A DNA stretch of 63,506 nucleotides, filler included, from 6 parts of 6 records of this genome joined end to end with filler, not necessarily neighbours in it, one strand, 5' to 3'. Shown: positions 1,119 through 49,048, counted from the whole stretch's first letter. Numbers and translations: made by a program. Notes: a model not told the origin generated them from the letters alone.

Positions 1119-1119
1119 T

Positions 1120-12338: not shown

Positions 12339-12441
12339 AGGCGTAAGTTCCCCAAGCCATAAATCCCTAAGAATTACGGGGAATTTAGAGGAACTTTCTT
12401 AAAGCGCGCTTAACCGTACAGTTTAACCGTAGCCACCGAAA

Positions 12442-13785: not shown

Positions 13786-13880
13786 GGGGAATGTTCCGAT
13801 TGTTCAGCAGCGCATCAAACTATACCGCACCTGGCGCAAAAAAAAGGCAAACACGCTTACGGGGTAAATATAACTGAAGG

Positions 13881-14732: not shown

Positions 14733-14836
14733 GCAGCTTCTCCATCAAAGATGCTTCTGGGTAGCCAACAGCATGCCCCATGACAAGAGGCGCTGACCAA
14801 AGCCGCGCCCCTTATGGCCTCATCAATGAAAAAACC

Positions 14837-15389: not shown

Positions 15390-15489
15390 NNNNNNNNNNN
15401 NNNNNNNNNNNNNNNNNNNNNNNNNNNNNNNNNTTAATTAATTAANNNNNNNNNNNNNNNNNNNNNNNNNNNNNNNNNNNNNNNNNNNN
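15390..15489. other. Artificial contig spacer
   Basis: N44-TTAATTAATTAA-N44. Confidence 0.99.
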
Positions 15490-25037: not shown

Positions 25038-25137
25038 NNNNNNNNNNNNNNNNNNNNNNNNNNNNNNNNNNNNNNNNNNNNTTAATTAATTAANNNNNNN
25101 NNNNNNNNNNNNNNNNNNNNNNNNNNNNNNNNNNNNN
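25038..25137. other. Artificial contig spacer
   Basis: N44-TTAATTAATTAA-N44. Confidence 0.99.
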
Positions 25138-25436
25138 CCCCCCCCCCCCCCCCCCTCTCTCTCTCCTAGGCCAGCGTTGTTTCGGTTTTGGTCTTTCTGC
25201 GCGGTTCTTTTTTCTGGAACTCGGCAGGGCGACGCTTCACGGTATCCCCTCCCGGTGGGCTCACGGGCGCCCCTGGCTCACCTGGAAGGACTCTCAGCTG
25301 TCATGAGAGAGAAATGCAAGAGTTCTTGTCGGGCTTCGCATTGGAAGGATAACTTCGGACTGGAGTGATGGGTAGAAGTTGTTGCCGCTGCTGTTGTTGA
25401 GGCTGTTGCTGGAGTGACCGGCGACAGTTCGTGACA

Positions 25437-28400
25437 ATGCTGAGGTACGGCGATGTTGTGACGCTACGTTTCGAATCGTTCGTTGGCAATGACATCAACC
25501 CGCATTCATGGGCTCGACGCCTCCGGCTTGCCAAGGCGAGCCAAGATAACACGCCCCTATCGCCGCGTGTTGCTGCTCCCGAGTCGAGGAATGAGTCGTC
25601 GCTTCGTGAAGTGCGCGCAGCCTTCGCTCGGGCCGGCCCAAGCGAGGGAGTTGTCTGCTCAACAGACAAGATTCACAATCATGAGTGCTATTTGTGTCAT
25701 GCAGACGACCCAGCAGTGCTCCGCCAATCAGACAGAAGGAAGTGCCTTTTCCAGTTGATACCACAGCTCAGCTACACCGCGAAGGCAGAGTTGCAGCGAG
25801 CGCTCGACCGTGTCGCTGTGCCTCGGCACCGGGGGGCGAGCAGCAGTGGACACGCTGCAAGGACTAAAACACGAAGGGTCACAGCTGAGCACAGTAACGC
25901 AGAGCGCCCCCGCTCTGCAAGTCAAGAAAATTCCCTGAGTCGCAAAAGCTCAAGTTTTTTGCTTCGTCGCCGCTCGGTGACAAACTTGGGAAGGATTTTG
26001 TCGACGGATGGCGACGAGCCCGGTGCGTATTGGTCATTGCAAGACCTGGCTGTGTATTTGCTATTGACCGACGGAGTCATGGGTTTGAAACTTCTTCGTG
26101 GGTTGGGCGCTCGGAGAAAGCCGGACGTACAGATTTTTGAAGAAGTGTCACTTGCTGCTCTTCACTTTGCCGCTGTCAGGTGCGGGTCGCGCTGCGCCAA
26201 GTGAGCCGGAAGATGCTAGCGTTGAACGACTTGACGACTTGCGCGAGGCGTTGGAGCTTGAAGAAAAACAGAATTTGGCCACTCAGCAAAAGCATTTTGG
26301 CCGTCCAGTCGTATATGGCGGAATTACGCAGCTACGACATGTGTCAACGGGCAAATATCTCACGCTTGACGCGCGGCAGGTGAGTCAACAGGCTTGCATG
26401 CATCACTGAATGACTAAATGGGGATTACTTGGTTTGGATTTCGACTGTCAAAGTTGTTCATTTATTTTTCTCGATCCTGTGTGTTGTGTAGGTGGCTGAT
26501 GCAGAGCACGACTGCCTGAAGGTTTTCCTTGCAGAATCTGGCTCTCCAAGTTCCTGGTTGGAACTGCAAGCCCCGTGCGTTGGTTGCCCTGACCACTCAG
26601 CATTCTACGACTCGCCTGGCGGTGGGGGCAATGAGCTGAGGTTTTTTTTTTTTTTTTGATGAAAATAGGTACAGCGTGTGGGACGAAGGTGCACTCATTG
26701 AAACAGACAGTGCAGTGAAACTTCGCTTTCGCGACTTTAAGCAGAACTTCCTGCATTGTGGAGTGGTTGGCGAGGTGAACGCTTCTGCTGCCGGATCGCT
26801 TTTTCAAATTCACCGATTTCAGGCGTTCGCGCCACACAGTGCCCAGATGCTACAGGTTGGATCTGTGGTGCGACTCGTTCACCCCCAGACTTCGCGGTAG
26901 GCTCCTGCTTTAGAGTCACGGACTGGCAGGTCGAAACAGTCAGCTGCAACCTCTCATTTTTGCCTTTTTCCCATTTGGTGTGCTGCAACGGAAGGTACTT
27001 GATTTATGACCATATTTCATCAGCGTATGAAGCTGCTCGTGCCCATGCGTCGGAGGCGGAGGCGCTGGCCGATGCCGCGTCAGAGAATTTGCCCACATTG
27101 CAAAATATTGCCTTGGAGTCAGTTGATGCCCCACATTTTAACGCTTCATGCTCATTGTGGATCGTTGAAACAAACTCGTTCGAGACCGCGGCCGCACGTT
27201 GGACAGACAAGTACGTGCAGCTGTACAGCAGCGTTCAGCGTTCAGCTCGTTGTACAGTGCCCTTGTTACTACTTTCGCATTTCGTTTTTTGCCCTCAATT
27301 TGTGGCTTTGGTCTGCGTTGGATTTTTTACTTCCATTGTGGTGGCTTTCCCTTTGTTCTTGTCGAAGGTTTTTTTTGCGACATTTGAACACACATAAACT
27401 GCTCGGCATTTCGCCACGTGGGGAGCTGTTTGTAGGGGACGGTTTTCGTTTTGATACTCGCGATTTTGAGGTGCGCATCACCTTCGTCTCTGCTTTTCTT
27501 GACAATTTTATATTCGGTGTGCCTCTACTTCCATCGATTCACCCACTTGACTGTGCTGTTTGTAGCTTTCCATTTCCGCAGTTTCTCGCGCTATCGATGC
27601 GAAAGGGAGCGGGGGATTTATTGAATTGTCTGAGGGATTTCTCCTTGGGAGAAAAGTTTTAGCAGCAGAGCACGCCGCAGAGATGTTTCATCGCGCGCCT
27701 GAAACGGTTGCCTCGACCGCTGCTGACGATGTTGTCGAGGCCATGAGTGAGAGCGGAGGTACCTGCTCTGCCAGTGCAAATGTGGTCTCTAGCGACAATG
27801 ATCACATCATTTCGCCACCAGCAAAGGAAAAAGTGTCGACCAAGTTTTCTTCCGTTCTCGCGTCCCGATTCAAGTCTTCCTCACCTTCACAGTCGGTCGA
27901 GTTCCTGAAAAGTCAACTACGCCAGAAATTTGGTCTGCTGGTGGAGCAAGGTGAGAGTACTCGAATACCCAGTAATGGTCATAGGGCCGAGACAATATTT
28001 CAAGACACCCATTTTTGGGTGCATTGTCCATCTCTCGCGATAGCGGCTCCAAAAATTTCGGGCTTGCGTGAAGCAGCGGAAAAGGGCAGTCACAATGAAC
28101 ACATCGGGGCCAGTGAATCAGATTCCGATTCAGACTCGGCTTCCGATTCCAGCTTTGATGTTGATGAGTTTGTGGACATGGCTCTCTCTGCGCAAGGCGT
28201 GCAAGGTGACCGTAAACGACTGCACAGCGGGCGCAGGAAGCATCAGCGAAATGGTAACAGACGCAGTGCTGCGTCCAAGACCCATGCTCGCGCTGGCAGT
28301 GTTCCCAGTTCACCACTGTACGAACAACCGCTGAGTTTGGGGTCAACGTCGGCTCGTGATCTACGTGACTCGTTTCGATTTGAGCTGGTTCGGATGGAAG

Positions 28401-31400
28401 AAGTTTATCGTAGGTTTTTCTGCTGCTCTGCCTTGTTTGCTGCTGTCGCAGTCTTTGGGTTGTTAAGCGATTTTTACGTGACATGTGCAGGAACGGACGA
28501 AGCGTTGGGTGACATCAAACGATTTCGCACATTGGCCAGATCTTTTTACAAAACCAGTTTGACACCTGCCAATGACCCCGATACCAGCGGAGACAAGAGT
28601 ACAGGCAGCACACAGGCAGCACATTTGCCGGCGCAACAATGGCTTGCTGAAGTTCTTGATGTTGTTGGATCACTTATTTTCTTCTGCACCGATTTGCCTC
28701 AAGCAACTCAAACAAGACTCCATGCCATGCATGGCTTCATCCAAAAGGCAGAGTTTTTGTTGTTGTTGAAAAAAGCCCAAAGTACTTCGACGGCAACGGC
28801 CCAGCCCAATGTGAAGAACCAAAAGCTCGTGCGGGAGCAAGGTGGCATTGGCATAACATTTTGGGTTCTTGAGCAACTGACCGCACTGTTGGACGGCAGC
28901 AGTGTGTCTGCATCCAAAAATGATACCTCAACATCACCCAAACAATCTTCCACTTCAGCTGTCGATTCGGCACAAAGGGTTCACACAAACACCACAGATG
29001 CTCGGGTGGACAGTCGGCACACCTCGCATTCTCGATGGATGAAAGTGAAGCAGTCTGCCCGCACACATACGATGGAAGCCATTGCCAACATTCGAACGAC
29101 GTGTTCTCTGCTGTGCGTAATGCGCTGTGTATTCGACGTTTCTTGCGAAGCGAATCGACTGCTCATGATTGGCTCGACAAAGCATCAAACTCTACTGACC
29201 ACCGTTCTTGGTTTGGTATCGTAGGTATTTTTTTCTGAGCTGTACAATTGCCGGCAATCCGTTGAATCAGCAAAAGGCGGCCGAGTGGATGGACGACATG
29301 ATTAAGCATGTTTTGCTTGAAGTGGGAGCAGCTGATTGCCTCACTAGGATGTTGCACAACAACCGCAAACTTTTGAGCGGTCGCCTTGTGCAGGACAAAC
29401 ACGTGGACGGTTTCGTTCGCATGATTACACGTGGTGGAATAATGCCTCTGGCACTCAAGTTTCTGCAAGTTCTATGCGCCACTCAACGCGAAGGAACCTC
29501 TCTCACGTTTGATGCTGTTGGCTCCATGCAAGCCTTGGTGTGCGAGGCCCTGCGGCGGAATGAAGCTATTCACTTTCGTTTTCGACTGAAAAACAATGAG
29601 TGTGCTGGTTCGTCGTTTTGGCCCTGTTTTCAACAATGAGGAACGCGTCCGCCACGTCAGTGGTCCAATCTCACCAACTGCATCCGGCTTGCCGGCAATG
29701 ATAGGCCGTCCCGGGGTGGACGTAATTCCACCAGACCTTACGAAGTTGTACGGAGATGCTGCGCGTGTGAGCAGCGAGTCGCAGAACCTTGCGACGTCTG
29801 CAGCTGCAGTTCATTCAGACTCCGAGGAAGAGGTTCCCCTGCTTTGGCATCATTATTTTGACTCTTGACTTCGCTGAACTGCCCTTCTAACTTTTCTCTG
29901 GCTTTGTGATGCCAGGACTCGGATTTCGACAAGTTTCACACGCTTGGTTCCGACGATCTCTTGCACGACACTACTGGCGAGTTCGTTCTTCACGATATCG
30001 AGGTCACTTGGAACGCCTGGGGGCCATCCGCTGCGCATATGACACCGCAAAGCTTGTGAGTTTTAACCAGCATTGGCGCCACTGCACGTCATGCTTATGG
30101 CACGGTGTTGCCTTTCGGTGCAAGTCTTGGACAAGTAGCCCTAGTGGTATGCAATCAAATTTTCATTCATCACGGCTGTTGAATTTGTGTGTATTTCCTA
30201 GATATGGGGTGGAGTGGGTGAATCTGCGCACATTGGCAAAGCGTGCTCACGAATACAACACAATGGCTATGGAACTTCATGAACGGCAACGCAATAAGCA
30301 GCAAACGAGGCCGCGGGCTAGCACGGCTCGGCGACGTGCTCATTCCATGGGCCACCAAAATTCTTCACGTTCACAAAATCGAATGTCGTTGAATGAAAAC
30401 GTTTCTCATGTTGTCTCGAGCTCGGAGTCAGTGGGTAAAAGTTCAATTCCCGCGGCAAAAGCACACGCGGATGTGCTGAACTATTTGGTTACGTCGTTGA
30501 AGTTGTACGTGTCCTCTGCCGACAGATGCTCAATACAAATATTTTGAATGCGACTGGCTCAACTGCACAATTTTTCTTCTGAACGAATATGTCAGATACG
30601 CAACCTTGTGCATGCAGCGCAACTACACTGGCATTCTATGGCTTGAACAGCGACTTCCTTACAACATATGCCTCGCCGGTCTTGTGCACCCTCGTCACGA
30701 CCCTAACATTCGAAGGGCATTTATGAGACTCATGGTGCGATTCTGCATGCCATCGAGTTGCTTATGCCGCGCCAGCTAAAAGGCGAAGTGACAATTGTTG
30801 GCGTCAAAATCGTAGGTGCATTTATGGATTGACCGCTCACCCCAGCGCCCAGTATCTGCACCGTTCTTAACACGCCATTGGCAAAGCCAGCAAGCTCATT
30901 CTCGCAATATGGAAGTTCACATGCAAGGTGTTGGAGGTCAGCTCCACATGCTAGCTGGGCCTGCGTCTCACCAAGTGCACCGACCCAAGCCGAAGCTTCG
31001 AACTCAAAAAACGCGCTTCCGGCACCTTCGCTCGCACGCTGATCATCCTCAAAGCGTTAGTGGCGAGGCTATTGCCGACCGACCGGATCATCCAGGCCGA
31101 TTTGTGCTGTTACAAGCGTTTATCCTTCAGTGCGTGGGCCTTTTTGCGTTCATGTTTCTGCAGTATGAAAGTGTGTTGGTTCCACATTCGATGGCGATGG
31201 GCCGGAAGAGTTCTTGTTCAGTTGTATGTGGGTTTCTTGGTCTGAACATGGAGGTACTTTCGACGACTGCCAAAGACGTCAGCATCAGTTCGACACAGTA
31301 ACTCTTTGCTTTTAGCCAGACGCCGTGCCAGGAGCGGAGCCGGTGGACGCGCTGCGTCACTCATGGAACGTCAAATGCGTGTTGCAGACCAGCGCTTGAC

Positions 31401-34400
31401 AGTCGAAATAGGCCTGGGGTTGCGCATGTTGTCAAAAATGGGATTCTACGCAACACTTCCAGCGTTCTTGGAGTTATCGCAGCATTTGGTTGCTTTGTTA
31501 GATGGGCGCACTGACCACGTTGACGACACTGGTGCACCGAATAACTCCAATATCTCCGGTGCCGGACGCGACGGCTTTGCCTTGTTTATCCGAGACAACA
31601 CCCTTCGAAGGAGAACGACATCACTCTCCAAGATGCAGTTGGAGCCCGCGAAGGGTCCTGTTTATGCAATCGCTCCAAACCTGGCGGCACAGTTCAACAG
31701 TGACGATGACGATAGTACAGAGAGTGAGGCTGACGATGGTACCACCGAAGGCGAAACCCACAACGGCGATGATTCGGATGGCGAGGCAACCGACTATGTC
31801 GCTGCTCGCGACTCCGTACGGCCGCGGCGAAGCAAAAGCTCTACCTTGAAATTGCAGCCAAAGATGCGTCAAGCTCGAAGATGCACCCTTTGCTGCTCGA
31901 AACGCACTATCGATGCCGTGATCAACAGCACGCCATACACGTTTGGGTTGCTTGTGTGTGTTCCATTGTCAATGATCACTGTTGTCATGCACTATCTTTC
32001 GGACAGTGTCGTTGGTACACTGGCTGAAGAGTGGACATACTTTTTGGTCGACGCAGCTTTCATGACCATTTTCGCTGCTGACGTCATTTTACGCTCGTGA
32101 GTGTGATTCAGTGACATGGGAACTGGGGTTCGGATTGTGTGACTCAGCACTAATGGACGCGGTGGCTGTGATACAGGTACCTGATGACATGGAAGCGATA
32201 CACGCGTGACGTGCTTTGCGTAGTTGACTTTCTTGTCTCGAGTCTTGATGTACGTTCGGATGTTTCTACTCCAATGCGTGCCGTATGCATGTGATAGCTT
32301 TTTTGTTCTGCTCTATTTTTTTGCTTGATTGCCGCGTACTGATGCTTGGCCATTTAGGTGCTGTCGTTTCTGTTTGCCGTATTTTCGCTTGCCAACTACA
32401 ATGACATTGCATCTGCGCAAGTAACTTGGGTATCGAACGTTGGAAGCGTTGTTGAGTTGTCTCCGATTCTTCGCTTGACGCGCTTCAGTCGCACGATTCG
32501 GCTTTTGCGCGTTGCGCGTGTTGTGCGCGCTGTAACACTGGCTCAAAAAGTCAAGGCCAACGTCGAGGAGACGTTTGTGCCAGCGCCACCTTCAGAGCTT
32601 CGACTGTGCGTGCCAGCGTCGCGAAATGATGTGTTGCTTGTTGAATTTGGCTTGGCTGTGTGTGATAAATTGCGTCCAAATGTTGCACGTGCGCTTTCAA
32701 CGTTCTGTGGTGCTAGGTTTCGATATCGAGTCGAAGAAGGAACTCGGAGCGTGACACAAATAAAGATCGTTGCTGTGGACCTCCTACGTACTTTCGGACG
32801 TTTGAACGATGACATTCGCCTGAACCGCCTCGTCACAAACTGTCAATCATTGTTTGCAAAAACGTCAGAAGAGAGTGCAAGGTGTGTTTAGATCCTGGAT
32901 TATACTTCATTGCTTCACCCCTGTTTGTTTGAACATTGAAGTCAGCGCCACACTGAGCGAAACATTGCTTGGATGTGCAAACGATTTATCAGCAAGTCTT
33001 TGTTAGGAGGTCATGAGTTTAGCGGTCAGACGACCCGTGGGTCAGCGTCCCCGTCAGCTGCAAGATCGGCAATAATATCAAGGCAGCCAACTATCATAGT
33101 ATCGTCACAGCCGGCTCGGCAATCTTCAAGGCCACCTTTATCAGCGTATATTTCCGCCTTCAATACCAGTGTGCAAAAACTATTCGAACATAGACATCAT
33201 CTGGTAAATGAGGTAGATACGGGTCGGTTACGTGTCTCTGCGCGCGCTCAGCAAGCAAAAGTGGAGGCCGTTGTCCAACAGTATCACTCCAATGGTGAAA
33301 CTACGTCACCGGGAACAGCAGCGCCTATTGCTGTGCACACTCGGATGCAAGCGCTTGGGCGCGGCGACCCGCTGTCCCATCGTATTCACCCGATTTCTTC
33401 TACATCCCCGGGGGCACACAGCCACAGAAACGGAATTGGAATCTGCGCGACAGAGTCGCCGAATGTGGACACTCTGCATGTTGCCGCCAATGACGAGATG
33501 GACGTTGAGGAACTCAGCGACTCAACCAGCGACACTGAAGACGAAGGCGTGCTGGTTGCAGTACCCCCAACCTACACTGGCCTGTTACCACATGAGCAAA
33601 CCATGCAGTGGCTTCTTGCCCAGAAATTCTCTCTTTATTTTCACGGAAGTCGTATTTGGGCCAACCATGAAGATCTTCGTCGCATTCCAGGCAAGAACAA
33701 ATTTTGTGGTTGCGCCGGCTGCGCGTGAAGAAGAAATAGTTGTTTACGATTTTAATGTTGTGCCACATGCTTGCACGTTGAAGGAACTATTGTGAGTGGC
33801 GGGATGTTAGAGCACGATGTCGATGCGATTCTGATGGACCTACTTCTATACGACGACCTTGAGCTTGCCTTGAAAGCGCTAACACTCTTGATTCAGAAGT
33901 ACGATTCAAAACTATCGTTGTTCGTAACTGCGAAAACTCCCATGCCATCGCCTGCACATTGAAAACCTTTGACTTTGAGTGCATGCTTCTCTCAGATATC
34001 GGCGGTGGGAATCGCTTCGCGACACTGTATGTGGGGTCCAAATGCTAGGATCTACCAGCGAATTTCAGCATTATGCTATCCTCAGAGGTTGTCTTTTTTG
34101 TGTGTCACTTTTCATTTTCAATGTCGCGTATGGGCACATGATCTGATCTTTTCCTCAATCACAAATATTGCTGTTATTATGCCCTGTGTAAAAAATCAAG
34201 GACACCTAGTCGCGTTGGAACACTTGTTCGAGGAATATGAAGCTTGGAAGGTGCTTGACAATGAACAAGCTGTCGAAGCCAAAACTCAGCGAGTTTTTCA
34301 CTCAATATCTGTCATTAAGCTCCTTCTTACTCCCCCGCGAGTTGGAGCATCGAGCCCGCGCCATCATGGTCCAAGTGATCGTCCATCACCGTTTCGCTCT

Positions 34401-37400
34401 GGATCTTCGTTTCTACGTTCGCATGTTGCAAGCAGCCCAGAATCATCTTGTGGCCAGCGCACGTCACAAAAGCAAGCACAGCAAGCGCTTGTGCATTTAG
34501 GGTTTGCCGATCTGATTGATACTGCGTTTGATATACCTTCGGAATGTGATGATTTCCCTTCGTGGTGGTGGAACGCTCCAGGTTAGAAATGCCTTGAGAA
34601 CCGAAGGTAGTGTTTAGCCAATGTTGCTTTTGTTCTGCGACAGGTCTAATCACGTTTGCCTTTTTTTGAATGGGCAAATGATAGGTCGCCCAGACTTGAC
34701 CGGTGAGAATCAATCAAGTCGCAGCACCATGCCTGAGACGAGGCCAAACGTTGTGATTGCAACGTTTGGAGGAAACATCGAGATGCTCCGGGCAAACGAT
34801 ACCGTTATCAAATTCCAGGACTCATCCGCGGCAAGAAGACAGCAATCCGGTCGCATACGTCGCGCGAAGCCGCTTGTGGCCGAGCAGTCCACTCAATTGA
34901 CGGTGGGTTTTGATTTCCCATGTTGACTGTACCATGCACTGACACGTACTTTTTCTGACGTGCTGTGCCTGGTCGGTGTTTGCTGCGCAACGCGGGGCCG
35001 AAATTTAGGATCCACCCGAGGTCGTGGTTGCGGACACCGACACAGACTCGCAACGGCGCACATTGAGCACTCACGAGGACAGTGGTGGGAGCGAGTTGTC
35101 GCTTATGTTATGGATGGACGCACATCCAGCCAAACGTGGCGTACGACGCAACGAGCATCGGCGACGTGTGATGTTGGGGTGGTTAAATGAGCTGCTTCTT
35201 GGCTTCGCTGACAGCAATGCCGACAATCAGAGATTACTGTTTGAAAAGATTCGCATCTTCATCCGAAATATTGGCCATGTGCAACATAGCGACCAAGTCG
35301 TTGCTGCCATTTTTTCGGGTATGATATCGATATCCTTGTTTGCTTCCAGTCTGAGCGCTGTTGAAGTTCAACTCTGCAGTTATGCATGGGCGCTGTGCCG
35401 TTTTTGGTGTGCAGGCAATTTGGAACTCTGCCGATTAGCCTCACCGCAGCTAGTCCATGGACTCATTGTTCAAATGGAAAGATCTTTTCATTATGGGGTC
35501 TTTGCGCAAGGCCTTGTTTCTGCATTGACAAGTATTGCCATGTCGACCAAGGGAAACCAGTCGGTTCGTTGCATGCTGTTGGGCGCGCTGCATGCGATGA
35601 AACAAATTGGGGTTTCGTATTGGCCAGTGGCTTGTATCTGGCGATTTACTTCTGAACACACTATGTTCATCTGAAAAGCATCAAATTCGCGATACCATCA
35701 TTACATCGATTTGTGCCCGAGCGCTGAATCTGGGATTTTACACACATACTGAAAAGCGAAACTCCGTTCTGCATCAAATCATTCACGAAGCATCAACCAA
35801 ATTGCGCGATGCAGCTTCATGGACAGCCTCGTGAGTGTTGGCTGTACTTTCCACTTTCCACACTCTGTTGTTGTAAGACTCCAAGCAGCCGAAAACGATT
35901 TTGCTGAAAAGTATTTACCGGTATATCACTTTCAGGTATATTGTCGAATTTGTTCCGGGAAGCCAGCGTTCAAAGGAGCTGAAGCAAAACCTAGACAATC
36001 CTGCCAAAGTCTCTGCGGAAAGCCCTCGAGAAGTCTTGCAGGGACGGCAACCAAGTCGCAGGCTACGGCGAAGGCAAACTTCACAAACTCAGTTTGAGTC
36101 AGTGCCTAGACATCGTCGGCGATCCAACACCACAAGATCGCTTCCTCCATCAGCCGACATTAGGGCTGATCAGCAGCGACATCGTCGACGATTACAGCAT
36201 TTCGTTGGCGCTGCACCGTTCATGCATGCACACATGAGCACAATGCGACTGCTGCTCGCTTGTTGCGGTTCGTGGTGTGCGTGTTGGTTTTATGACCTGT
36301 TTTTGGCATTCGCAAGCCAGTGACCTTGCTTGCATTGTGGCAGGTTCCGGGGTTGGCAACGACTCTCTCCTCGCCCAGAAGTGCCAAACCCTCTATCCTG
36401 CTGCGACTTTGGTACGTTTTTAGTCAAGCATGTTTGGTTTGGTGTAACTTGTGTGATCATTGCCATAGATGAACCTGGAAGGTGGATGCGTGTGTGTGCA
36501 TGTACCTCCTGTTGAAGACGGCTCTTGTATGCGAACCCGACATTCTCTGGAACGCGCGCGTGATATACATTGATCTACTGAGTAGCCTTTACATTGACAC
36601 TGCAGCACCGACGAAAGGGTGAGCACTATTCATGGTTTGGCTTTTGTTTTTGAATCATGTCGACGCATTGGATTGAGAACAGCTTTTAAATGTCGGTGCA
36701 GATTTGTCAGCGAGTCGAATTTACCAGGCGTGGTGGATGTATTTGCGCGGACCATCCAGGTTGATGACGTTCATTGATTGATGAATGCTATTTTTTGTTG
36801 TGATTTAACATTGTAAGCACCGCCCAGCCAACAATTGCCATTTGCTTGACACGGCTTTGTCTGCACGGTGGAGTTTAGGTTTATTCCAGCATGAATGCTC
36901 AGCGGCCTGACCTTCAGCTTGAGCTTCAGAATTTTTTAGTCCAACCAGGTTTAGAAGGTGGAGCCAAACTAGATCCGTTGCGCCACAGCGTCGTCGCAGA
37001 TCTGCGCCAACATCCAGCATTTTTCCTGACACACTTGTATTGCCAAGTTTTACCCGTTCTCGCCACTTTTATGAATCGATATGGACCAAACTTGTGCGCG
37101 CTTCTTTCCTGTTTCTCAAATGGCTTTACGTATCCTCGTTGTGGAACGATTGATGACAGTGCCTGCTGTGCTGATCCGGACAGATATATGGCCAGTCTTC
37201 GCAGCAGCACGCACCTCAAAGACAGTTTATCCAACGTACGTGCAGCAGCTTGTTCTGTCTGGCATACAGTATTTGACGAGCCATTCGTTTCCCCTCTCTT
37301 ATCGCGCGCGTGTTCGTTGCTTTTTGATGAAATAAGATACTGCACGTCATATGTGAGCTCTTTCGCTCAACTTCGAGCATTGAACGATGGTTTGGTTCGT

Positions 37401-40400
37401 CAACCCAAGATGATGGCAGCAGTAGATCAGCGGTTGTGGGAGGGCGGTGGAGAATGGGTGACAGAATCCAAGACCTTACGTCGACCACGTTACTGCAATG
37501 GCGCCTTGCGCTCTGCATTGCGCAGTTTGAAGATGTGTGCGTGCTTTCAGTTTGTACACGCAACCACGTTTTTGAAACCGCTTTCATTTTGATCAGTTTT
37601 ATGAACCACCTGTCTCATATAGGTTTGAGTTGCTGCTGTGGGACAGCTTTGACCCAAAGACTTATCTGGACGAGAAGGACATTCGAGCGCTGAAAAACGC
37701 CGTGGCTTCGGCCCAGCGCTTCGAAGTTCCAAGTGGTGATGTGTCTGCGAGAGCCAGCTTGCTGGTTTGTTCAACCTGGTACGATCTCGTGTGCACTGTT
37801 TCGCCATGCAACTCATGATGCGACGTGAGGTTGAATGGATGTGGAACAAATATTGTTGGTTTTAGGCCGCATTTTCCTGTGTTGGCAGAACATGACATCG
37901 AGGAATACAATTCTAGTTTTGGAAAACGCCGGCTCCCGAGGCGACGCGGTGGTCCACCCGTTGTTGAGCAACACTCGCTTCCTCAAATTTTTGAGCGATG
38001 TGCACAACTTGCATTCGGGCAAGGCCAGTCCGGTGGCAGCTCCCAGACCACGTTCGGAACCCAGGGAGCCAATACAAGTATTCACATCACTGTAAGCTGG
38101 GCGTTTGCCGTGCTGTCACACGTGCATGCTCATGCTCTTGACGCCTTGAGTACCGAACGTGATTTTTTGAATTCTCCGTGGGCTAATCAGGACGAGGATA
38201 CTCACGGGGCGCGAGCTTCTCGGTTGAGGCAGAACTTGGTCAAGCAAATGATGTCTCTCCCACAAACGGTCTGTCTTTTTCCAGGAATAAACCATTGGTT
38301 TCGTTTCGAGTGAAAGTAGTGTATTACCACTCATTTATTTTGCGAAATTTACTTCACAGATCAATGGACCGGAGGGCGTGGGCGATCAGCCGTTGGACAG
38401 CTGCACGCTGCCAAACGTTTTGCAACGCATGATTGTCCTGGTGCAGCATTCGCTTGAGCCAGTACCCGGCGAGCGGTGAGCAGTGTTGAACATTTTTTCT
38501 GCCCCCTGTTTATTCCTCTTCTTTTTGCTATCGTGCGTGTGCATGCCGCTCACTGACATGTGCATCGAACGATTCTTGCATTAGCTTTAGTTTGAAGTTC
38601 GGGTCTCCATCATTGGTTCAGGCCGCCTCACAAGTGGTCTCTATTCTGAAGGTACACACGACATGATGCCAACTTTGGGTTTTATGCTTAGATTGGAGAC
38701 ATTATACGTTTGAATCGTGCGCATGCCGCATGCTCATCACAGGCCATCGTCGATTCTGTTGGAGTTCACCACAATGGCAGCGGGGTTGTTCGGCGCACTC
38801 TTCCTGCGCTGCAAGAGCAGGCACGTTAGCGGTTGGTGCAAGACTTCATGCCATCATTCGCACCAACCGCTGTCACAAATATGTTTGTTTCAATGCAGGT
38901 CTCTCTTGTTGGGGGCGTTGAACTTGTATTGGCGCTTGTGTCTTCGAGCGTGCCAGATGACCTGTTCCTGAAGGCCGTTGAACTTGGTATTGTTCTAGTC
39001 GCTGCCGAGCGAGTTCCTGCACAGGATGTGATGCACGGAGTTAGCAGTTCACCACCAAGCGAGTTTGTCAACGTGACTCCCCCCACAAACGATTTTTTTC
39101 GGCGCATTGGGCTCACGAACTTTGTTGCTTGCAACTCCAAAATGCAGCGGCATTTTTTTCAACGCCTTTTGCATGAAGCTGGCGCCAGTGAGGCCTTTAT
39201 GTTGGGTGTACGGCGTCGACTTGAGCTCGCAATGCAGGTTGTCGCTCGCACAAAAATGTTTGCCGACGAAGAGCACATTCCTGAGCTTGGGGCCTTCACG
39301 AGTTCTCGCATCGAATCTCCAATGGCCGCGCATCAGACTCTGGCGCAGCAGCCGCCTCCGTCAAATTCGGCGGTTTTACGCCTGCACACGCAGATTCCAA
39401 AAGGAATTGGAGAAGCCGCTGCTGGAGCCATGCACGGCGCGAGTTCAGCTACCCCCTCTTTCGGACGAAAACTCCGCGACGCGCAAAATTTGCCATCACG
39501 TGAACGACTGCCTTTTGGTCAGACCCCAAGTGCTTGGAGTCTTCGGATGGTTCAAATGCTTTACCTCTTGGTGCTCAGTGGGTCTGAAACGCACAAGTCG
39601 TTGTTCAAAGAGCAGGCTCATGCAGCAGTCTCCGTGAATTTGCTTGACACAATTGTCAAGTACTTCGGAACTTTTGCAGGTGCGTTTGCTGTTATCGCCA
39701 CAATTGCGAGATGCCTAAGCGCTTCGGAGCACAGTAATGATCAATGTATCTGTTTCTCTTCCTTTTAATCAATGCCAGAGAGATTTTGCATTAGCCCTTC
39801 GATCTTGACAGCCCTGGCGGTGTCATCGAACCTACTGTGTGCCCTGCTCGACGGCCCTTGCAAGAAAAACCAAGTGCATTTGGTGGGTTTTCAGTGCTGT
39901 TGCTCTCACTTGCCTTTTACGATTGTGCACCGAAGGAGTTGAATTTTGATTGTGTTGATGTGTAGGCGACCCGAACTGATCTCCTCGACACTGTGAACCA
40001 TTTGTTGCGTTGCCTTGCCGCGGCTCACGACACGTATGCGAGGCATCTACCTTTCATGAATCGATCGCGAACGACTGTCTCCGACCGTAAGAAAAAAGTA
40101 TCGTCAATGCCTTTGAGCGGAGAAACGGAAGAGTGGTACTTCGACGTTCTCATGCTGTTGTACCGTGTCGAGGAGAACCTACTTCGTTTGGTAGGTTGGT
40201 TTAGCGAGTGATGGGTGATGTGGTGCTTTACCTGTGTGCACGGTACAATCATTTGCCTGCTTTTGAAATGTGTGTTAGTGCCTCGGCATGATTGATGGCT
40301 TGAGTAACCCGACTGTAGTGGAAAAGGTTCACACAACGCTTAAATTTCATCTGTGGTGAGTTTAGTTCTAAAGTGTCGCTTGTCTGCTCGGAACTGTGCA

Positions 40401-43400
40401 CGCCGTGTCTACAATTTAAAAACAAAATCTTGTTGCACAGGCTGGAACGCCTGGGTTCAATGCGCAAGCTTGTTCACGGCCTTGGTGGGCGCGAGCTTGA
40501 ATTGCCGCCGTCTCCATCAATTGAAGCACAGCGACGCTACTCGATTGTTCAAAAAAATTTGACAATTGGTGAGCACTGTTTGTGTTTTGCTGATTGCCTT
40601 TATGATTGTATTGCAAGAGTACGTTGCCTGCTTGGCATAGGGGTTTGTTCGTTCTTTATTCATGGATGTTGCTTCGGGGCACAGGTCATAGTTTAATGAT
40701 GCTCGTCCACTACATTGGGGAATTATTTCCGGAATGGTACCAACATTTGATGGAGCGTGCTGCAACAACACGGGCACCAGATTATTTTGATACGGGACTG
40801 CGCCGCGTTGAGGTGTTTTGGTGTAACCGTGTTCACGCTGCGTACTTTCCTACTCTGGCAATGTGCAAGTAAGGGCAAAGCGTTTCAGTGCAGAATATCA
40901 ACCGTTGTTTCACCCAAAATTCGCTGTACTGACGGTAATTCCTGTTGGACTTGCCACAAATGCGGGCACAATGTTTTTGTTGTTGCACCAGGTCAATTCC
41001 TCAAGCCCGTCTCGACAGTCTCCTCGAGTCCGTTGACCGACAAAACCATGACACGAAATTGAATGGCTTTACTTCTATTGCCAAGGATCTGTACATCTCA
41101 ATGCGTCATTCGGCGTTGTCAGTTTGCCGCCTTGTTCTCGGTCATTATTTTATTTTGCTTGAGTCCGCAAATGCAAACATTTATCGTTATTACGGACCTG
41201 GTATTCGTCCTGCGCCATAGGTTGAAGCAAAAACGCCTTGACGTGCTTTTCAGTGAGCGGAAACTCATGTACGTCAATCACCGACAGATACTCACCTCTG
41301 CATTTTTCGCATCACTCGCTATCTAGTCCTTGGTTGCCACCTTCATCCACGTTTTCGTTTGTGAAATGTGGACAACCAAAAAGGTACACTCAAAACACTA
41401 AATTCGCGTTGGCACTTCTTATCAACGGCTTCATATTTTTGTTCATGGAAGCATCGCACAGCGACAGCCATGACCAAGAGCTTCTTCTGACCAACACCTG
41501 GTTGCAGGATAGTTTTCTCGACAGTGCGGGTGGACCGGATGCGTTCGTGCAGGTGCGACAAACGTGTCGTCAGGCGGCTGCATGCTGTTTCCATCGCGTG
41601 TTGCATCATATTGAGTGCACGGATCGAAACACTTTCTGGCTCGGTTGAACACAGGTGCTGGGATATCTTCAACTCTTTGCAGCCCTATACGTAATGGTTT
41701 GCCGCTACGTACTTTCGCTGCCAATTTTCTACGCGCGGCATCACAGCATCCTGGCAGCAATGCTAGACCCTCAAGTGGTGTACCCCTTAGCGTAAGAATT
41801 GCGTGTGTTTGATTTGGCCCTCGCAACTTGAAGTTCTTTCGCATACTAGTGGACTCTTTGGGAAACACATTTGATTTTTCGCTTTGTCGTGTTTTGGAAC
41901 AGTTACGTTGCTGTTTGTGCGGTTGGATTGTGGTCGGGATTTCTCTACGTTTACTGCTTTTGTTTCCTGGTACGTGACGCCAGTCGGTGCAAATTGGGAG
42001 TTTTCAATTTTGCTTCCCTCGCGCGTGTTTGAGAGCCGAACAACAAATATCTTCCTCGGCATTGCTTCTAGGATATCGTGGAGCGTTCAAAGAATGTGCA
42101 ACATGTGCTCTTCGCTGTTACCCGCCCAATCCGACAAATCATGTTGACCATGACCCTGCTACTCATCGTGCTCATCATTTACGGCTACACCGTGTTTTAT
42201 TTCAACCGCGAAAAGGTGTGGAGTCCGTAAAATGGATTGCACTCGTTCTTATGGGTTCTGTGTGCGCAGGCTTGATCAGTGGTGCGCTTGATCGATGTGA
42301 CAGGTTGATACGGGCGAGTGCTACTCAATGTTTTCATGCGTCCTTTGGGTAATCTACGTTGGTGCTCGATATGGCGGCGGCATAGCGGACGGTATCAACG
42401 ACTATGACATTTACTTTGAGCAGGCAACATGGTTGTCGGTTTCGTTCCTGATCGGTACGGGTTTGCCTGAGCACTGCAAGCGGTTCTTTCGTTAAAACCA
42501 AACTCATTGTTTGCTTTGCGCTGCTTGACATGATGTCGTTCAGGCCTCAGCTTCTACGTTGTGGTGAACCTCATTTTGTTGAACCTTGTGTTCGGCATCA
42601 TCATTGATAAATTTGCTGAGCTGCGTCAAGATCGAGACACCAAGTTGTATGACCAGGTTTGCTGCATTTGTCTGTTGCTTTCTCCACACGCTCCAAATCA
42701 ACTTTGAAGCATTTTTCAGCACACTGCACGTCGTCGTTCCGTCCGCTTGGCAGGAAAATTTCTGTTTCATTTGCGGACTCTCAAGGCGGGAATTTGAAAT
42801 GTCGCAGCAAACTAACTTTCACACACACACCAAGCAAGTGCACAACCCATGGGCTTATTTGCAATACATTGTGTACATCAGCGAGAAACCACGCCAGTCT
42901 CTGTCTGGCATAGAGAGGTGCGTCGCCTGAAGGATTTAATTTCACGCAGTTGATGTGGCTCATTGGTGCACACTCGCGCGGAGTCCCATGTGAACTCGTG
43001 GTCTTTCTTTGATCGGCTTCCCGACCCGTAGGCACGTGGCACGGTGTTTAGACGTGAATAAAATCAAATGGTTTCCGCAAGGATTCGCCTCCGACCTTGT
43101 GCTGCATGGAGTGGCCAATGAATCCAATGGGGGAACTGCAGTTGACGACAATGCACGCCACATCGACGCTAACGGCCGTGTCCCAAATGACAACGACGCA
43201 GATCATAGCGTGCGTTCTGTTAACAACTTTGTGAATGAACCTGAACTCGACCATACAGGGACATGTGTTCTCCAAAATGCCGACTCATAAGGTTGGTGCC
43301 ACTAAATGTGCTGTTGCGCAGCCTGCGTTGCCGGAAGCCATTTTGCAAGCTATTCAGAAATTGGATGAGCGCATGCAGACCATCGAACAGCTGCAGGAAT

Positions 43401-43539
43401 GTTCCGTTTTTTGCACCGTATTTTGAACCCACTATGTGCCGGTTGCGACCTGTGCATCAACATGGATTTTTTTTTTCGGCTGCAGGCTTTGTCACAAATG
43501 GAAACAGTCGGATTTGACCAGGATGAATCGCCGCCGTGA
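25437..43539 (+). CDS. Multi-exon IP3-receptor-family Ca2+-release channel with an inserted voltage-sensor domain
   Basis: Collinear IP3R motifs: MLRYGDVVTL, CLFQLIP, EEKQN...VVYGGITQLRHVSTGKYLT, GSVVRLVH, SLWIVE, QKLVREQ, MLHNNRKLL, HLWIDRSPQ, GFY...LLDG, DGPCKKNQ, RVEVFW...YFP, pore GGGIAD, NLVFGIIIDKFAELR, CFICG...HTKQVHNPW, KWFP; many short GT-AG introns. Exact exon model not fully resolved. Confidence 0.92.
31930..32560 (+). other. S1-S4 voltage-sensor domain encoded by three exons inside the IP3R gene
   Basis: S1 PYTFGLLVCVPLSMITVVMHYL; S2 FLVDAAFMTIFAADVILR; S3 VLCVVDFLVSSLD/VLSFLFAVF; S4 RLTRFSRTIRLLRVARVVR (32472-32528). Introns 32097-32176 and 32250-32357 keep the frame. Confidence 0.85.
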
Positions 43540-43694
43540 CAGTCTTTGGCATGGTTCACGGTGCGAATAATTTCTTGAAATGCACCAATAGGCCGGTTTG
43601 TTTTTTATTCATAATAATGACCTGCATAAGTGGTACGAATGCCACACACCTCCCAAACCTCACTGTGGCGACCAAAGCTGCGTTTTGGCTGCGG

Positions 43695-44900
43695 CTACGA
43701 TTCTGAAAGCAAGCTCGCCAAATACTGCCTTCGCTGTTTGGCCTGCTGAACGCAGCATCCAGTTGCCACAAAAGTCACACACAGAATGCCCACCAGCGCG
43801 CCAACTACGCCCCAGCCATACTCCGGCAGATTATTGATGTCGAACACATATCTGGTACATCACGTTTTACATTGGCAAAACAGCAAGGCGCGTTGAAGAA
43901 AAGATATCCCCGAGCGCTGCAATAGAATGGCAACACGCAAGCTCGCTTTGGTTGACGAACGTTTTAGGTGCGGGGGCTGGGATGTCAACTCTACGCTCCC
44001 GTGAGACCAAGTCAATCCTTGAGCATTGTGTATCGCCAGGGAGATCGCATCCGTAGCGAATGCCATCCTGTGATGGGAACATGAAGCTGAGCTGAAGCTA
44101 CTCGTCGCGAGTGGAATCAATACCGTGGACGGCGTGGAGTTGTGTGACATGCACGACCTTTTGACAACATATGTGCCTACCTTTTCACAGAATGGAGCAA
44201 TCGTGAGTGGTGTTCCTGATCCACCGCCACAAGCACAACAGGCACCAAGAGCGCTTCGATTTGCACTTTTCGCGCCAATGAAGTTGTCGTAGTATTCGAC
44301 ATCATATCGCAGGAACTTCCCCCCAGCACAAAAGCCTCGGGCCTCGTAAACGGCACATGACAGCCCTAGCGTTCCACAGCACACGACCAAGCCAGCAACA
44401 GCAAAGGATTTTTGCCAAGTGGTACAAACCTGCATGGAAGAGAAAAAAACAAGCCCAGACCTCGATACAAACCGTCCCGATCGAGCCAAGGATTTTCACA
44501 TTCACCAGCGCAAGGATCCCCAAATCGGTTGATGTCGACGCATGGCGACCTACAAACAAAGTCGAGCTCCATCTTCCATGGCGGCTGCTTGTCTGTCCTG
44601 TCTCCTCCAACGTAGCTGTTTAGAACGCCAAATGAAAACAACGCAGACTCAACGGGCGAAGACGACTGCATGATTGGCAGGCAACGACGATCGACAACGC
44701 GTTGCAAAAACGGACCCGAGGCTAAGGTTCGCGTCCAACGTGACATTAAAGTCCGCCTCCCACTCATCATTGATGCACACGCACTCAACGCCGTTCACAC
44801 TGTCCACTGGCAAAATGTCGTACATCGGCGTCGCAGCCTCATCATAATTTTCATACGCAGTTTCAATCAAAGTGGCTCCGGAAAGTTTCGCCTGAAGGTT
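43695..44900 (-). CDS. 3' exons of a Cys-rich single-pass membrane protein (5' truncated)
   Basis: Cys-rich exons including ACCACGGG; last exon YGWGVVGALVGILCVTFVATGCCVQQAKQRRQYLASLLSES, stop at 43695-43697. Confidence 0.55.
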
Positions 44901-44974
44901 GATGAGCACACACAAAAAGAAAAAAGAAAAACATTGTCGTCATGATCACAATTACGACGATGACAAATCGTAGC

Positions 44975-45039
44975 AAGAACAGCAGTAGCAACAGCAGCAA
45001 CAACAAAAAAACGACAGCAACAACAACAACAACAACAAC
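44975..45039 (+). repeat. (CAA/CAG)n microsatellite at the contig end
   Basis: Directly visible. Confidence 0.85.
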
Positions 45040-45139
45040 NNNNNNNNNNNNNNNNNNNNNNNNNNNNNNNNNNNNNNNNNNNNTTAATTAATTAANNNNN
45101 NNNNNNNNNNNNNNNNNNNNNNNNNNNNNNNNNNNNNNN
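45040..45139. other. Artificial contig spacer
   Basis: N44-TTAATTAATTAA-N44. Confidence 0.99.
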
Positions 45140-45140
45140 G

Positions 45141-46352: not shown

Positions 46353-46363
46353 ACGACGACGCC

Positions 46364-47602: not shown

Positions 47603-47608
47603 GGCAGC

Positions 47609-48904: not shown

Positions 48905-49048
48905 TTTTCTGCCGGGGCAGTAGCAGGGCAGTGGCTGGGGTTCGGATATCCACAACTTAGAAAAGTCACGGCACCCGTTACATTATTCGCTTCACGGGCA
49001 CGGGGTGCCGCTTTTCAGAAGACGCGGGCGCGCCATGGGGCTGACAGA

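What the first reader, a model, noticed from the sequence alone, without database searches (positions are those of the whole stretch)
31306..32880. IP3-receptor-family channel with a complete voltage-sensor domain inserted in its cytosolic scaffold
Seen: three exons sit between two IP3R landmarks, GFYATLPAFLELSQHLVALLDG and TQIKIVAVDLLRTFGRLNDDIRL. They are joined by canonical GT-AG introns (32097-32176, 32250-32357, 32606-32716) that preserve the frame. They encode S1, S2 with F-x-x-D-x-x-x-R (IFAADVILR), S3 with the conserved Asp (VVDFLV), and an S4 with seven Arg at perfect i+3 spacing (RLTRFSRTIRLLRVARVVR, 32472-32528). No pore follows this S4; the channel's own TM/pore module is about 9 kb downstream. 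Established: in animal IP3Rs the equivalent interval is a disordered cytosolic loop, and IP3R/RyR channels have no charged S4 and are ligand gated; skeletal muscle couples voltage to Ca2+ release with two proteins (Cav1.1 and RyR1). Inference: this protist protein may be a single-chain voltage-sensing Ca2+-release channel, with the sensor in the plasma membrane (or the same store membrane) pulling on the gating scaffold. I do not know of a description of this architecture.
Basis: partly seen in the sequence, partly recalled or inferred. Interest (0 to 1): 0.93.

Follow-up and report, generated by a model that had tools for sequence, protein, structure and literature searches.

The report
Voltage-sensor domain inside an IP3R/RyR channel
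A marine protist gene encodes a giant calcium-release channel of the IP3-receptor/ryanodine-receptor family with a complete, strongly charged voltage-sensor domain built into the middle of its cytosolic part, a combination I found in no paper, which could let one protein turn membrane voltage directly into calcium release.

Summary
The three exons and three GT-AG introns exist as described. A 13,218-nt spliced contig in public run X1 matches the window with no mismatch. It joins the S1-S4 exons to upstream RIH-domain exons and continues past 39676. An independent 949-aa relative (P0001) reads through all three junctions without interruption. P0001 scores above Pfam's cut-off for Ion_trans, on the S1-S4 part of the profile only. 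A seawater-metagenome contig (L001) carries a collinear ortholog with the same insertion. My gene model gives about 4,114 aa in about 57 exons: weak Ins145_P3_rec and MIR matches, a significant RIH domain, the voltage sensor at residues ~1657-1795, a weak RIH_assoc match, then a RyR-like pore and an IP3R-like C-tail. All seven S4 arginines are invariant in 4 of 4 sequences. The sensor is among the best conserved parts of the protein. The two "IP3R landmarks" could not be aligned to solved IP3Rs, the fold model failed (pLDDT 46), and function is untested. I think the sensor most likely sits in the same membrane as the pore, not in an opposing plasma membrane. Seven literature searches found no description of this architecture. 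Verdict: a real and apparently undescribed architecture; interest 0.8.

The parts
25229..43700 (+). Transcribed gene. The spliced transcript contig starts at 25229. The model CDS runs 25437-43539: about 57 exons, about 4,114 aa. The 3' end is approximate.
   Evidence: 13,218-nt contig of run X1, 0 mismatches, GT..AG skips, depth in all 30 bins; frame open for 2,116 codons over 18 junctions; the model downstream of 33690 comes from my own dynamic programme, guided by tblastx to L001 and two length constraints from the contig. Exons at 37623-38268 and the last exon are uncertain.
26180..26379 (+). Exon with a weak N-terminal Ins145_P3_rec match (IP3R/RyR N-terminal domain).
   Evidence: 18.2 bits, below the cut-off of 23; the L001 ortholog gives 15.4 bits, plus MIR at 18.5 bits (cut-off 25.6).
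29225..29607 (+). Exon 9, RIH domain (RYDR_ITPR).
   Evidence: PF01365, 40.8 bits against a cut-off of 22.3. L001 scores 25.5 bits; 17 of 30 Atlas hits fall in RIH-domain clusters, score 0.96.
31254..32096 (+). Exon 15. It carries upstream motif 1 (31441-31506), a variable acidic linker (31519-31899), a basic/Cys cluster (31864-31920), S1 (31933-32004) and most of S2 (from 32026).
   Evidence: one piece, 31254-32096, contig letters 7879-8721.; the linker is 34% identical to P0001, which has 70 extra residues there.
32097..32176 (+). Intron (80 nt, GTGAGT..CAG) after the first two bases of a Ser codon in S2.
   Evidence: P0001 is continuous across it.
32177..32249 (+). Exon 16: end of S2, the S2-S3 turn, and the first half of S3 with the conserved Asp (VVDFLV).
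   Evidence: It is 79% identical to P0001 and contiguous in L001/P0003.
32250..32357 (+). Intron (108 nt, GTACGT..TAG) inside S3.
   Evidence: It is absent from P0001 and from the L001 genomic sequence.
32358..32605 (+). Exon 17: second half of S3, the S3-S4 loop, S4 (32463-32537, seven Arg at i+3) and the start of the S4-to-scaffold linker.
   Evidence: R39, R42, R45, R48, R51, R54 and R57 are invariant in 4 of 4 sequences. S4 is 80% identical to P0001.
32606..32716 (+). Intron (111 nt, GTGCGT..TAG). It is in frame and free of stop codons, so retaining it would add 37 residues to the linker.
   Evidence: It is removed in the X1 contig (length arithmetic) and absent from P0001.
32717..32881 (+). 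Exon 18: the rest of the 35-residue S4-to-scaffold linker and downstream motif 2 (32754-32822).
   Evidence: the linker has 0 indels against P0001, and motif 2 is 79% identical.
33691..33783 (+). GC-AG intron after exon 19 (32993-33690).
   Evidence: no GT at the cut. The junction reproduces the P0001 reading (..PG/SIVSGG..).
41403..42656 (+). C-terminal channel module: about six hydrophobic segments, a pore helix with the filter GGGIAD (42373-42390) and S6 (42552-42626).
   Evidence: ORF 42301-42495 matches RyR1 4875-4903. 39 of the 44 hits at E<=10 are RyR chains, E 0.034-0.15.
42754..42917 (+). Post-S6 CFICGL..H..H zinc-finger-like tail.
   Evidence: IP3R1 2604-2658 at E 5.9e-6. Of 51 hits at E<=1, 12 are IP3R chains (E about 6-8e-6) and 39 are RyR chains (E 0.0045-0.05).

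Best explanation
This is a real single gene of an unidentified, intron-rich marine protist. It encodes a protein of about 4,100 residues in the IP3R/RyR superfamily. About 1,650 residues from the N-terminus, between the RIH domain and the RIH_assoc-like region, the protein carries a complete four-segment voltage-sensor domain of the Nav/Cav/Kv type and no pore of its own. These points are shown.

The rest is inferred. One polypeptide is inserted into one membrane, so the sensor most likely sits beside the channel's own six-segment pore module. That membrane could be a Ca2+ store or, if the whole channel is trafficked there, the cell surface. Both ends of the sensor face the cytosol. The upstream connection is a long, acidic, length-variable tether. 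The downstream connection from S4 to the conserved scaffold helix is short (35 residues), invariant in length, and conserved. S4 movement in response to the potential across that membrane would therefore be passed to the cytosolic armadillo-type gating scaffold. That would bias opening of the Ca2+ pore, as S4 drives the phosphatase of voltage-sensing phosphatases through a short linker. The result would be a voltage-modulated Ca2+-release channel in a single chain. The confidence given is for the whole statement including the inferred mechanism; for the architecture alone it is about 0.95.
For: Architecture:
- The spliced 13,218-nt contig has 0 mismatches and spans 25229 to beyond 39676, with depth in all 30 bins.
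- The frame is open for 2,116 codons across 18 junctions.
- X1 holds 0.63 of the sampled words. The spliced form alone predicts about 0.64, from the exon content of the model (my arithmetic).
- The ortholog L001 is collinear over 3,490 of 4,114 model residues.

Family:
- RIH scores 40.8 and 25.5 bits against a cut-off of 22.3.
- The Pfam hits on L001 come in the order Ins145_P3_rec, MIR, RIH, Ion_trans, RIH_assoc.
- The C-tail matches IP3R1 at E 6e-6, and the pore and filter match RyR1.

Sensor:
- Ion_trans scores 33.8 bits against a cut-off of 25 on P0001 residues 349-483, which is profile positions 3-113 of 241, S1-S4 only.
- The L001 S2-S4 ORF scores 21.4 bits on profile positions 42-116.
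- The best solved-structure match of P0001 is a NavAb/Nav1.7 sensor, although it is weak (E 0.13).
- The seven S4 Arg are invariant in 4 of 4 sequences.
- S2 has the spacing acidic-x6-Phe-x2-Asp-x3-Arg and S3 has Asp-x5-Asp. Both are read directly in the window and in P0001. That this is the charge-transfer-centre spacing is my recollection.

Selection:
- The S2b-S4 stretch is 63% identical to L001, against 42.4% overall. Only pore-region stretches score higher.
- S4 is 80% identical to P0001.

Coupling:
- The S4-to-motif-2 linker is 37 aligned residues with 0 indels.
- The upstream linker differs by 70 residues.
Against: - No functional datum exists.
- The window's own VSD pieces, split by introns, gave no Pfam hit at E<=0.01. 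Both VSD-bearing ORFs were among the 10 scanned.
- A profile of the orthologs found no voltage-gated channel among solved structures.
- The AlphaFold model, built from a 6-row alignment, has pLDDT 46 with unpacked helices. Foldseek gave 0 matches at E<=0.001.
- Charged S4 segments persist in some channels that are barely voltage dependent (established knowledge).
- Store membranes are generally thought to hold little potential.
- The distance from the scaffold insertion point to the membrane is unknown, because the flanks could not be mapped onto a solved IP3R.
- Contigs cannot show whether isoforms that skip the VSD exons exist.
Confidence: 0.5

Rival explanations
1. Trans-junction coupling. 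The sensor sits in the plasma membrane, or another opposing membrane, while the pore sits in the store membrane. One chain would then do the work of Cav1.1 plus RyR1.
For: The sensor lies far from the pore in the sequence, about 1,900 residues away. It hangs on a long flexible acidic tether on one side. IP3R/RyR cytosolic assemblies do span junctional gaps (established knowledge).
Against: All transmembrane segments of one polypeptide are normally inserted co-translationally into the same membrane. I know of no integral protein with helical bundles in two separate membranes (established knowledge; inference). The short, length-invariant 35-residue linker after S4 would have to reach the opposing membrane. 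Nothing here tests localisation.
Confidence: 0.08
2. The four helices no longer sense voltage. They act as an extra membrane anchor or assembly element, or as a site for lipid or partner binding.
For: The fold and function are untested. IP3R/RyR channels already carry an uncharged S1-S4-like bundle (established knowledge). A conserved Cys cluster just before S1 is seen in the window, P0001 and L001. It could be a lipidation site that serves anchoring (inference).
Against: Seven Arg at exact i+3 spacing are invariant in 4 of 4 sequences that are only 51-57% identical outside the closest pair. The S2 and S3 counter-charges and the S2 Phe are kept in the window and in P0001. S4 is the best conserved stretch of the region at 80%. 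An anchor needs none of this.
Confidence: 0.2
3. The sensor is itself a conduction pathway, Hv1-like or a gating-pore leak, that supplies counter-current or H+ flux during Ca2+ release.
For: Pore-less sensors that conduct are known, for example Hv1 and the CatSper sensor (PMC7560727 and PMC10377628; search listings and abstract starts only). Ca2+ release does need counter-ion flux (established knowledge).
Against: S1 carries no acidic residue within its hydrophobic core (read). The Arg ladder is complete, with no gap that would open a gating pore. The requirement for an S1 Asp in Hv1 is my recollection. No family-specific hit beyond the generic Ion_trans.
Confidence: 0.05
4. Artefact: a misassembly, a chimeric transcript contig, or two adjacent genes read as one.
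For: The window is a concatenation of contigs, some of them bacterial-looking. Run X1 is only guessed to be RNA. A contig across two genes would not prove a single transcript (tool caveat).
Against: The gene lies wholly within one contig piece, 25138-45039. Motif 1 and S1-S2 share one exon, and S4 and motif 2 share one open frame. The frame stays open for 2,116 codons across 18 junctions. Two other sources, P0001 and L001, show the same order independently.
Confidence: 0.02

Closest known systems
IP3 receptor / ryanodine receptor superfamily (animal ITPR1-3 and RyR1-3; protist Ca2+-release channels such as those of Paramecium, PMC3213138, abstract start only)
   Same: RIH domain above Pfam's cut-off. 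Weak Ins145_P3_rec, MIR and RIH_assoc matches in the canonical order. A C-terminal six-segment module with a GGGIxD-type filter, a conserved S6 and a CFICGL..H..H tail.
   Different: It carries an additional, fully charged S1-S4 sensor in the cytosolic scaffold. At about 4,114 aa it is longer than the solved IP3R chains (2,453-2,771 aa) and shorter than full-length RyR chains (4,966-5,037 aa), going by the chain lengths listed. The pore is nearest RyR while the tail is nearest IP3R. Ligand-binding residues were not assessed.
Cav1.1-RyR1 voltage-induced Ca2+ release in muscle (reviewed in PMC6053751 and PMC11087772; search listings and abstract starts only)
   Same: It links a Nav/Cav-type voltage sensor to a RyR-type Ca2+-release pore.
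   Different: In muscle, two proteins sit in two membranes and are coupled across a junction. Here there is one polypeptide, most likely in one membrane, and the link is covalent through a 35-residue linker.
Voltage sensors coupled to non-pore effectors: voltage-sensing phosphatase (PMC4187576, abstract start) and Hv1 (PMC13095418, passages read)
   Same: The S1-S4 module has no S5-S6 of its own. The end of S4 is joined by a short linker to a cytosolic effector.
   Different: The effector here is the gating scaffold of a giant Ca2+ channel. The sensor is internal to the chain, not N-terminal.
Oomycete PKDRR channels (PMC4820453, passages read; PMC7399828, abstract start only)
   Same: They are a precedent for shuffling RyR/IP3R modules with other cation-channel modules in protists.
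   Different: PKDRR proteins are polycystin-type channels carrying a RyR domain. They are not IP3R/RyR channels carrying a voltage sensor. No voltage sensor inside an ITPR/RyR homolog is mentioned in the passages I read.

Membership tests
IP3R/RyR superfamily | RIH (RYDR_ITPR, PF01365) domain above the curated cut-off | tested here: met
   Window ORF 29199-29639 scores 40.8 bits against 22.3. L001 ORF 6707-7123 scores 25.5 bits. Atlas: 17 of 30 hits are RIH clusters.
IP3R/RyR superfamily | C-terminal pore module with a GGGxGD-type filter, a conserved S6 and a post-S6 Cys/His tail | tested here: met
   The tail matches IP3R1 2604-2658 at E 5.9e-6. The pore helix and filter match RyR1 4875-4903 at E 0.03-0.05, and 39 of 44 hits are RyR. 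The filter reads GGGIAD.
IP3R/RyR superfamily | N-terminal Ins145_P3_rec plus MIR domains | tested here: inconclusive
   Only sub-threshold hits: 18.2 and 15.4 bits against 23, and MIR at 18.5 against 25.6. They lie in the right place and order. The scans were run on exon-sized fragments.
IP3R/RyR superfamily | RIH_assoc domain before the pore module | tested here: inconclusive
   13.9 bits against 28.5 on L001 ORF 16232-16957. No hit in the window ORFs (0 of 10 ORFs had any family).
IP3 receptor proper (IP3-gated) | Conserved IP3-coordinating basic residues in the binding core | not tested
IP3 receptor proper | The motifs flanking the insertion are alignable to animal IP3R, with a disordered loop as the equivalent interval | tested here: not met
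   No IP3R hit in any of four searches: phmmer of P0001 at E<=1, phmmer of its first 141 residues at E<=10, the ortholog profile of the motif-1 region at E<=10, and the profile of VSD plus motif 2 at E<=1. A dedicated motif-2 profile was not run.
Voltage-sensor domain (S1-S4 of the voltage-gated cation channel superfamily, Pfam Ion_trans) | Profile match to the S1-S4 part of Ion_trans above the cut-off | tested here: met
   P0001 scores 33.8 bits against 25 on residues 349-483, profile positions 3-113 of 241. The L001 S2-S4 ORF scores 21.4 bits on profile positions 42-116. The window's own pieces, split by introns, gave no hit.
Voltage-sensor domain | S4 with basic residues at every third position | tested here: met
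   Seven Arg, invariant in 4 of 4 aligned sequences.
Voltage-sensor domain | Charge-transfer centre: S2 Phe with two acidic residues and one basic residue, plus the S3 Asp | tested here: met
   D-x6-F-x2-D-x3-R in S2 and D-x5-D in S3, read in the window model and in P0001. The reference spacing is recalled and does not come from a call.
Voltage-sensor domain | Four-helix antiparallel bundle fold | tested here: inconclusive
   AlphaFold2 on a 6-row alignment gave four long helices in the right places, but pLDDT 46.3 and pTM 0.27. Foldseek gave 0 matches at E<=0.001.
Voltage-sensor domain | Gating charge movement | not testable with these tools
   This needs electrophysiology or voltage-clamp fluorometry.

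The most novel reading that the evidence does not exclude
A single-chain voltage-gated Ca2+-release channel. A built-in Nav/Cav-type voltage sensor, covalently tied by a rigid-length linker to the cytosolic gating scaffold of a RyR/IP3R-type channel, opens or closes the pore in response to the potential of the membrane it sits in. This would be a third gating mode for the superfamily, beside ligands and protein-protein coupling. It would also be an independent protist solution to the problem that muscle solves with Cav1.1 plus RyR1.
Probability: 0.45. Interest if true: 0.9.

Novelty: new variant of a known kind. Interest (0 to 1): 0.8.

Why it matters
IP3R and RyR channels are textbook ligand-gated or partner-gated channels. 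Voltage reaches them only indirectly, through a separate Cav channel. A member of the family with its own conserved, fully charged voltage sensor would have three consequences.

- It would show that the giant cytosolic scaffold can accept a mechanical input from an S4 helix within a single chain.
- It would provide a minimal, genetically tractable model for voltage-induced Ca2+ release.
- It would raise the question of whether the membrane that holds it, a Ca2+ store or the cell surface, carries a physiologically used potential in these protists.

It also adds a third class of effector to pore-less voltage sensors, after phosphatases and transporters or proton paths. In the 1.84 billion representative proteins searched, the family is rare: 5 hits, which together with the window and L001 trace to at least three lineages. 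This shows how much channel diversity sits in unsampled marine protists.

Tried and rejected
- Whole genome: none is held.
- Pfam on 20 window ORFs: only RIH was significant. The split VSD pieces gave nothing.
- The search for homologous proteins, P0001, 'longer': 0 of 7,998 candidates.
- The search for homologous proteins, P0001 region 335-500, 'shorter', E<=10: 0 of 5,353 candidates. This search did not return P0002 or P0003, which one search had found, so these blanks are weak evidence.
- Atlas on the P0001 VSD region: no usable hit.
- Solved-structure searches for the flanking motifs: none at E<=10. The A2 profile gave one spurious ribosomal hit.
- A dedicated profile of the motif-2 region was not run, so motif 2 was tested only within the A2 profile.
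- AlphaFold2 of P0001 residues 332-557 with a 6-row alignment: pLDDT 46.
- Foldseek against the PDB: 17 matches at E<=10 and 0 at E<=0.001, all meaningless. A deeper alignment of sensor homologs could not be gathered.
- The search for related loci with alignment A2 was rejected as unsuitable. It was repeated with A3.
- Sequencing runs: no holder on record as RNA is listed. The single holder, X1, is 'RNA?' by guess. Its contig is spliced, so it derives from processed RNA.
- My first gene-model programmes over-spliced or timed out. The cause was a GC-AG intron.
- Earlier findings of this scan: nothing.
- Taxonomy: Pfam on neighbouring ORFs gave only an EF-hand protein and bacterial-type enzymes. 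The organism stays unidentified.
- Literature: seven searches and passages of three papers gave no description of a voltage sensor inside an IP3R/RyR homolog. Supplementary tables of those papers were not seen and could list such architectures.

Full report
**What the window is.** The 63.5-kb window is six contigs joined by spacers of N. The finding lies in the piece 25138-45039 (GC about 0.50). The flanking pieces at 1-15389 and 45140-63506 have GC about 0.6 and dense long ORFs of bacterial type, for example an FAD-linked oxidase and a phosphoglucomutase. No whole genome is held.

**The observation.**
- An open frame from 31246 to 32100 contains the first motif, a long acidic stretch, a hydrophobic S1 and an S2 ending in IFAADVILR.
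- A 73-nt exon carries the S3 aspartate (VVDFLV).
- An exon from 32358 carries the rest of S3 and an S4 with seven arginines at every third position.
- The second motif follows after a 111-nt intron that is itself in frame and free of stops.
- All three introns start GT(G/A)(A/C)GT and end (C/T)AG.

**Are the junctions real?** Three independent lines say yes.

1. One public run (X1, 'RNA?' by guess) holds 0.63 of the sampled words of 28000-37999. Laid on the contig, it gives one 13,218-nt record with no differing letter. The record skips GT..AG intervals from 25229 onward: 15 joints are listed and 44 more are not shown. The pieces 31254-32096 and 32991-33688 are separated by 484 record letters. 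A retained intron or a skipped exon would not give this number. The spliced form alone predicts a word share of about 0.64 from the exon content of my model (my arithmetic). So the run holds the processed form only.
2. A search with ORF 31246-32100 found one protein among 8,000 scored candidates. This is P0001: 949 aa, an uninterrupted ORF on a 3.8-kb contig, 40-47% identical. It reads first motif, acidic linker, S1-S4, second motif in one piece. It runs across all three junctions and lacks the 37 codons of the third intron.
3. A scan of metagenome contigs with an S3-S4 alignment matched 321 stretches and confirmed one, L001, a 23.9-kb seawater contig. L001 is collinear with my model over 3,490 of 4,114 residues at 42.4% identity. 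It shares intron positions such as the one before exon 15, but has no intron in S3.

A HMMER search of 1.84 billion representative proteins with ORF 32358-32891 returned only five proteins. They are P0001, two fragments 87-94% identical to the window (P0002, P0004) and two ORFs of L001 (P0003, P0005). The architecture therefore exists in at least three lineages but is rare in the databases.

**The gene.** Joining the exons given by the transcript contig leaves one frame open for 2,116 codons across 18 junctions. Downstream of 33690 the joints were not printed. I built that part with a dynamic programme using codon usage, splice-site matrices trained on the 18 known introns, tblastx conservation with L001 and two exact length constraints from the contig. 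One GC-AG intron (33691-33783) had to be allowed.

The model has about 57 exons and 4,114 residues. The stretch 37623-38268 and the last exon are uncertain. Along the protein:
- Weak Ins145_P3_rec and MIR matches come first.
- A significant RIH domain follows: 40.8 bits in the window and 25.5 in L001, against a cut-off of 22.3.
- The sensor lies at residues ~1657-1795.
- A weak RIH_assoc match comes next.
- A hydrophobic cluster at 3716-3967 carries a pore helix and the filter GGGIAD. This matches RyR1 4875-4903, and 39 of 44 hits at E<=10 are RyR chains.
- S6 and a CFICGL..H..H tail close the protein. The tail matches IP3R1 2604-2658 at E 5.9e-6: 12 IP3R and 39 RyR sequences among 51 hits.

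An Atlas look-up of the RIH exon agrees, with 17 of 30 hits in RIH clusters. The protein belongs to the IP3R/RyR superfamily. I cannot say which branch.

**Is the insert a voltage sensor?** Evidence for:
- P0001 residues 349-483 match positions 3-113 of the 241-position Ion_trans profile at 33.8 bits against a cut-off of 25. That is S1-S4 and nothing of S5-S6.
- The L001 ORF with S2-S4 matches positions 42-116 at 21.4 bits.
- The best solved-structure match of P0001 is the sensor of a NavAb/Nav1.7 chimera. It is weak (E 0.13), but it aligns S1-S3 in register.
- The seven S4 arginines are invariant in four of four sequences.
- S2 shows acidic-x6-Phe-x2-Asp-x3-Arg and S3 shows Asp-x5-Asp, in the window and in P0001. 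I recall this as the spacing of the charge-transfer centre.
- The S2b-S4 stretch is 63% identical to L001 against 42.4% overall, and only pore-region stretches score higher. S4 is 80% identical to P0001.

Evidence against, or missing:
- The window's own pieces, split by introns, gave no Pfam hit.
- A profile of the orthologs found no channel among solved structures.
- AlphaFold2 with only six rows gave four long helices but pLDDT 46, and Foldseek found nothing meaningful.

I rate homology to voltage sensors at about 0.95 and retained voltage sensing at about 0.65-0.7.

**The flanks.** The two motifs are strongly conserved among the orthologs: 66% and 79% identity to P0001, with 36 invariant columns in the motif-1 alignment. 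No search aligned them to solved IP3Rs. What is shown is the order RIH, then sensor, then the RIH_assoc-like region, then the pore.

**How it probably works.**
- A four-segment sensor has both ends on the same side of the membrane, so it fits inside a cytosolic region without changing the topology of the downstream pore module.
- All ten segments belong to one polypeptide and would be inserted into one membrane (established knowledge). The sensor therefore most likely sits beside the pore module, in a store membrane or, if the channel is trafficked there, in the surface membrane.
- The two connections are very unequal. The upstream linker is acidic, 34% identical, and 70 residues longer in P0001. 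The downstream linker from S4 to the second motif has 37 aligned residues and no indel.
- This is the pattern expected if S4 movement is handed on to the scaffold through a linker of fixed length, as in voltage-sensing phosphatases. The steps from anatomy to mechanism are inference.

The rivals are a sensor in an opposing membrane, a non-sensing anchor, a conducting sensor and an artefact. They are weighed in their own sections.

**Novelty.** Seven full-text searches found no description of a voltage sensor inside an IP3R/RyR homolog. Neither did passages of a voltage-sensor review, an oomycete Ca2+-signalling review and a comparative study of the ER Ca2+ system. Their supplements were not seen. 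Both modules are known, and the combination appears to be new.

Noticed in passing
window 6712-6811, 15390-15489, 25038-25137, 45040-45139, 58148-58247: The window is six contigs joined by spacers (44 N, 12 bases, 44 N). Pieces 1-15389 and 45140-63506 have GC about 0.6 and dense long ORFs of bacterial type (FAD-linked oxidase at 45219-46352, phosphoglucomutase at 12442-13785). The assembly therefore mixes a protist with bacteria.
   Followed up: partly
window 32606-32716 and 28410-28490: Two introns are in frame and free of stop codons (111 nt and 81 nt). Retaining the first would add 37 residues to the otherwise length-invariant linker between S4 and the scaffold. The ORF called in a close relative (P0002) reads on into that intron.
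   Followed up: no
window 33691-33783: A GC-AG intron among otherwise GT-AG introns. The transcript contig has its cut there, and the junction reproduces the reading of P0001.
   Followed up: yes
window 31864-31920: A basic stretch with a cluster of three cysteines lies just before S1. It is also present in P0001 and L001. It could be a membrane-proximal lipidation site.
   Followed up: no
window 43860-44900, minus strand: A neighbouring spliced gene lies on the opposite strand (joints 44364-44472 and 44615-44716 with CT..AC ends). Its contig depth (81-111) is much higher than that of the channel transcript (18.6). Pfam gave no hit for its largest ORF.
   Followed up: partly
window 17991-18674: An EF-hand protein ORF (EF-hand_7, 39.1 bits) lies on the neighbouring, eukaryote-looking contig piece 15490-25037.
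   Followed up: no
P0001 region 335-500: The word-indexed protein search returned nothing at E<=10 among proteins of 30-520 aa. Yet P0002 and P0003, found by the exhaustive search, fall in that length range and share several five-residue words with the query. Blanks from that tool are weak evidence here.
   Followed up: no
window 42373-42390: The selectivity filter reads GGGIAD where the aligned RyR chains have GGGIGD. Ala replaces the second-last Gly, which might affect conductance or selectivity.
   Followed up: no
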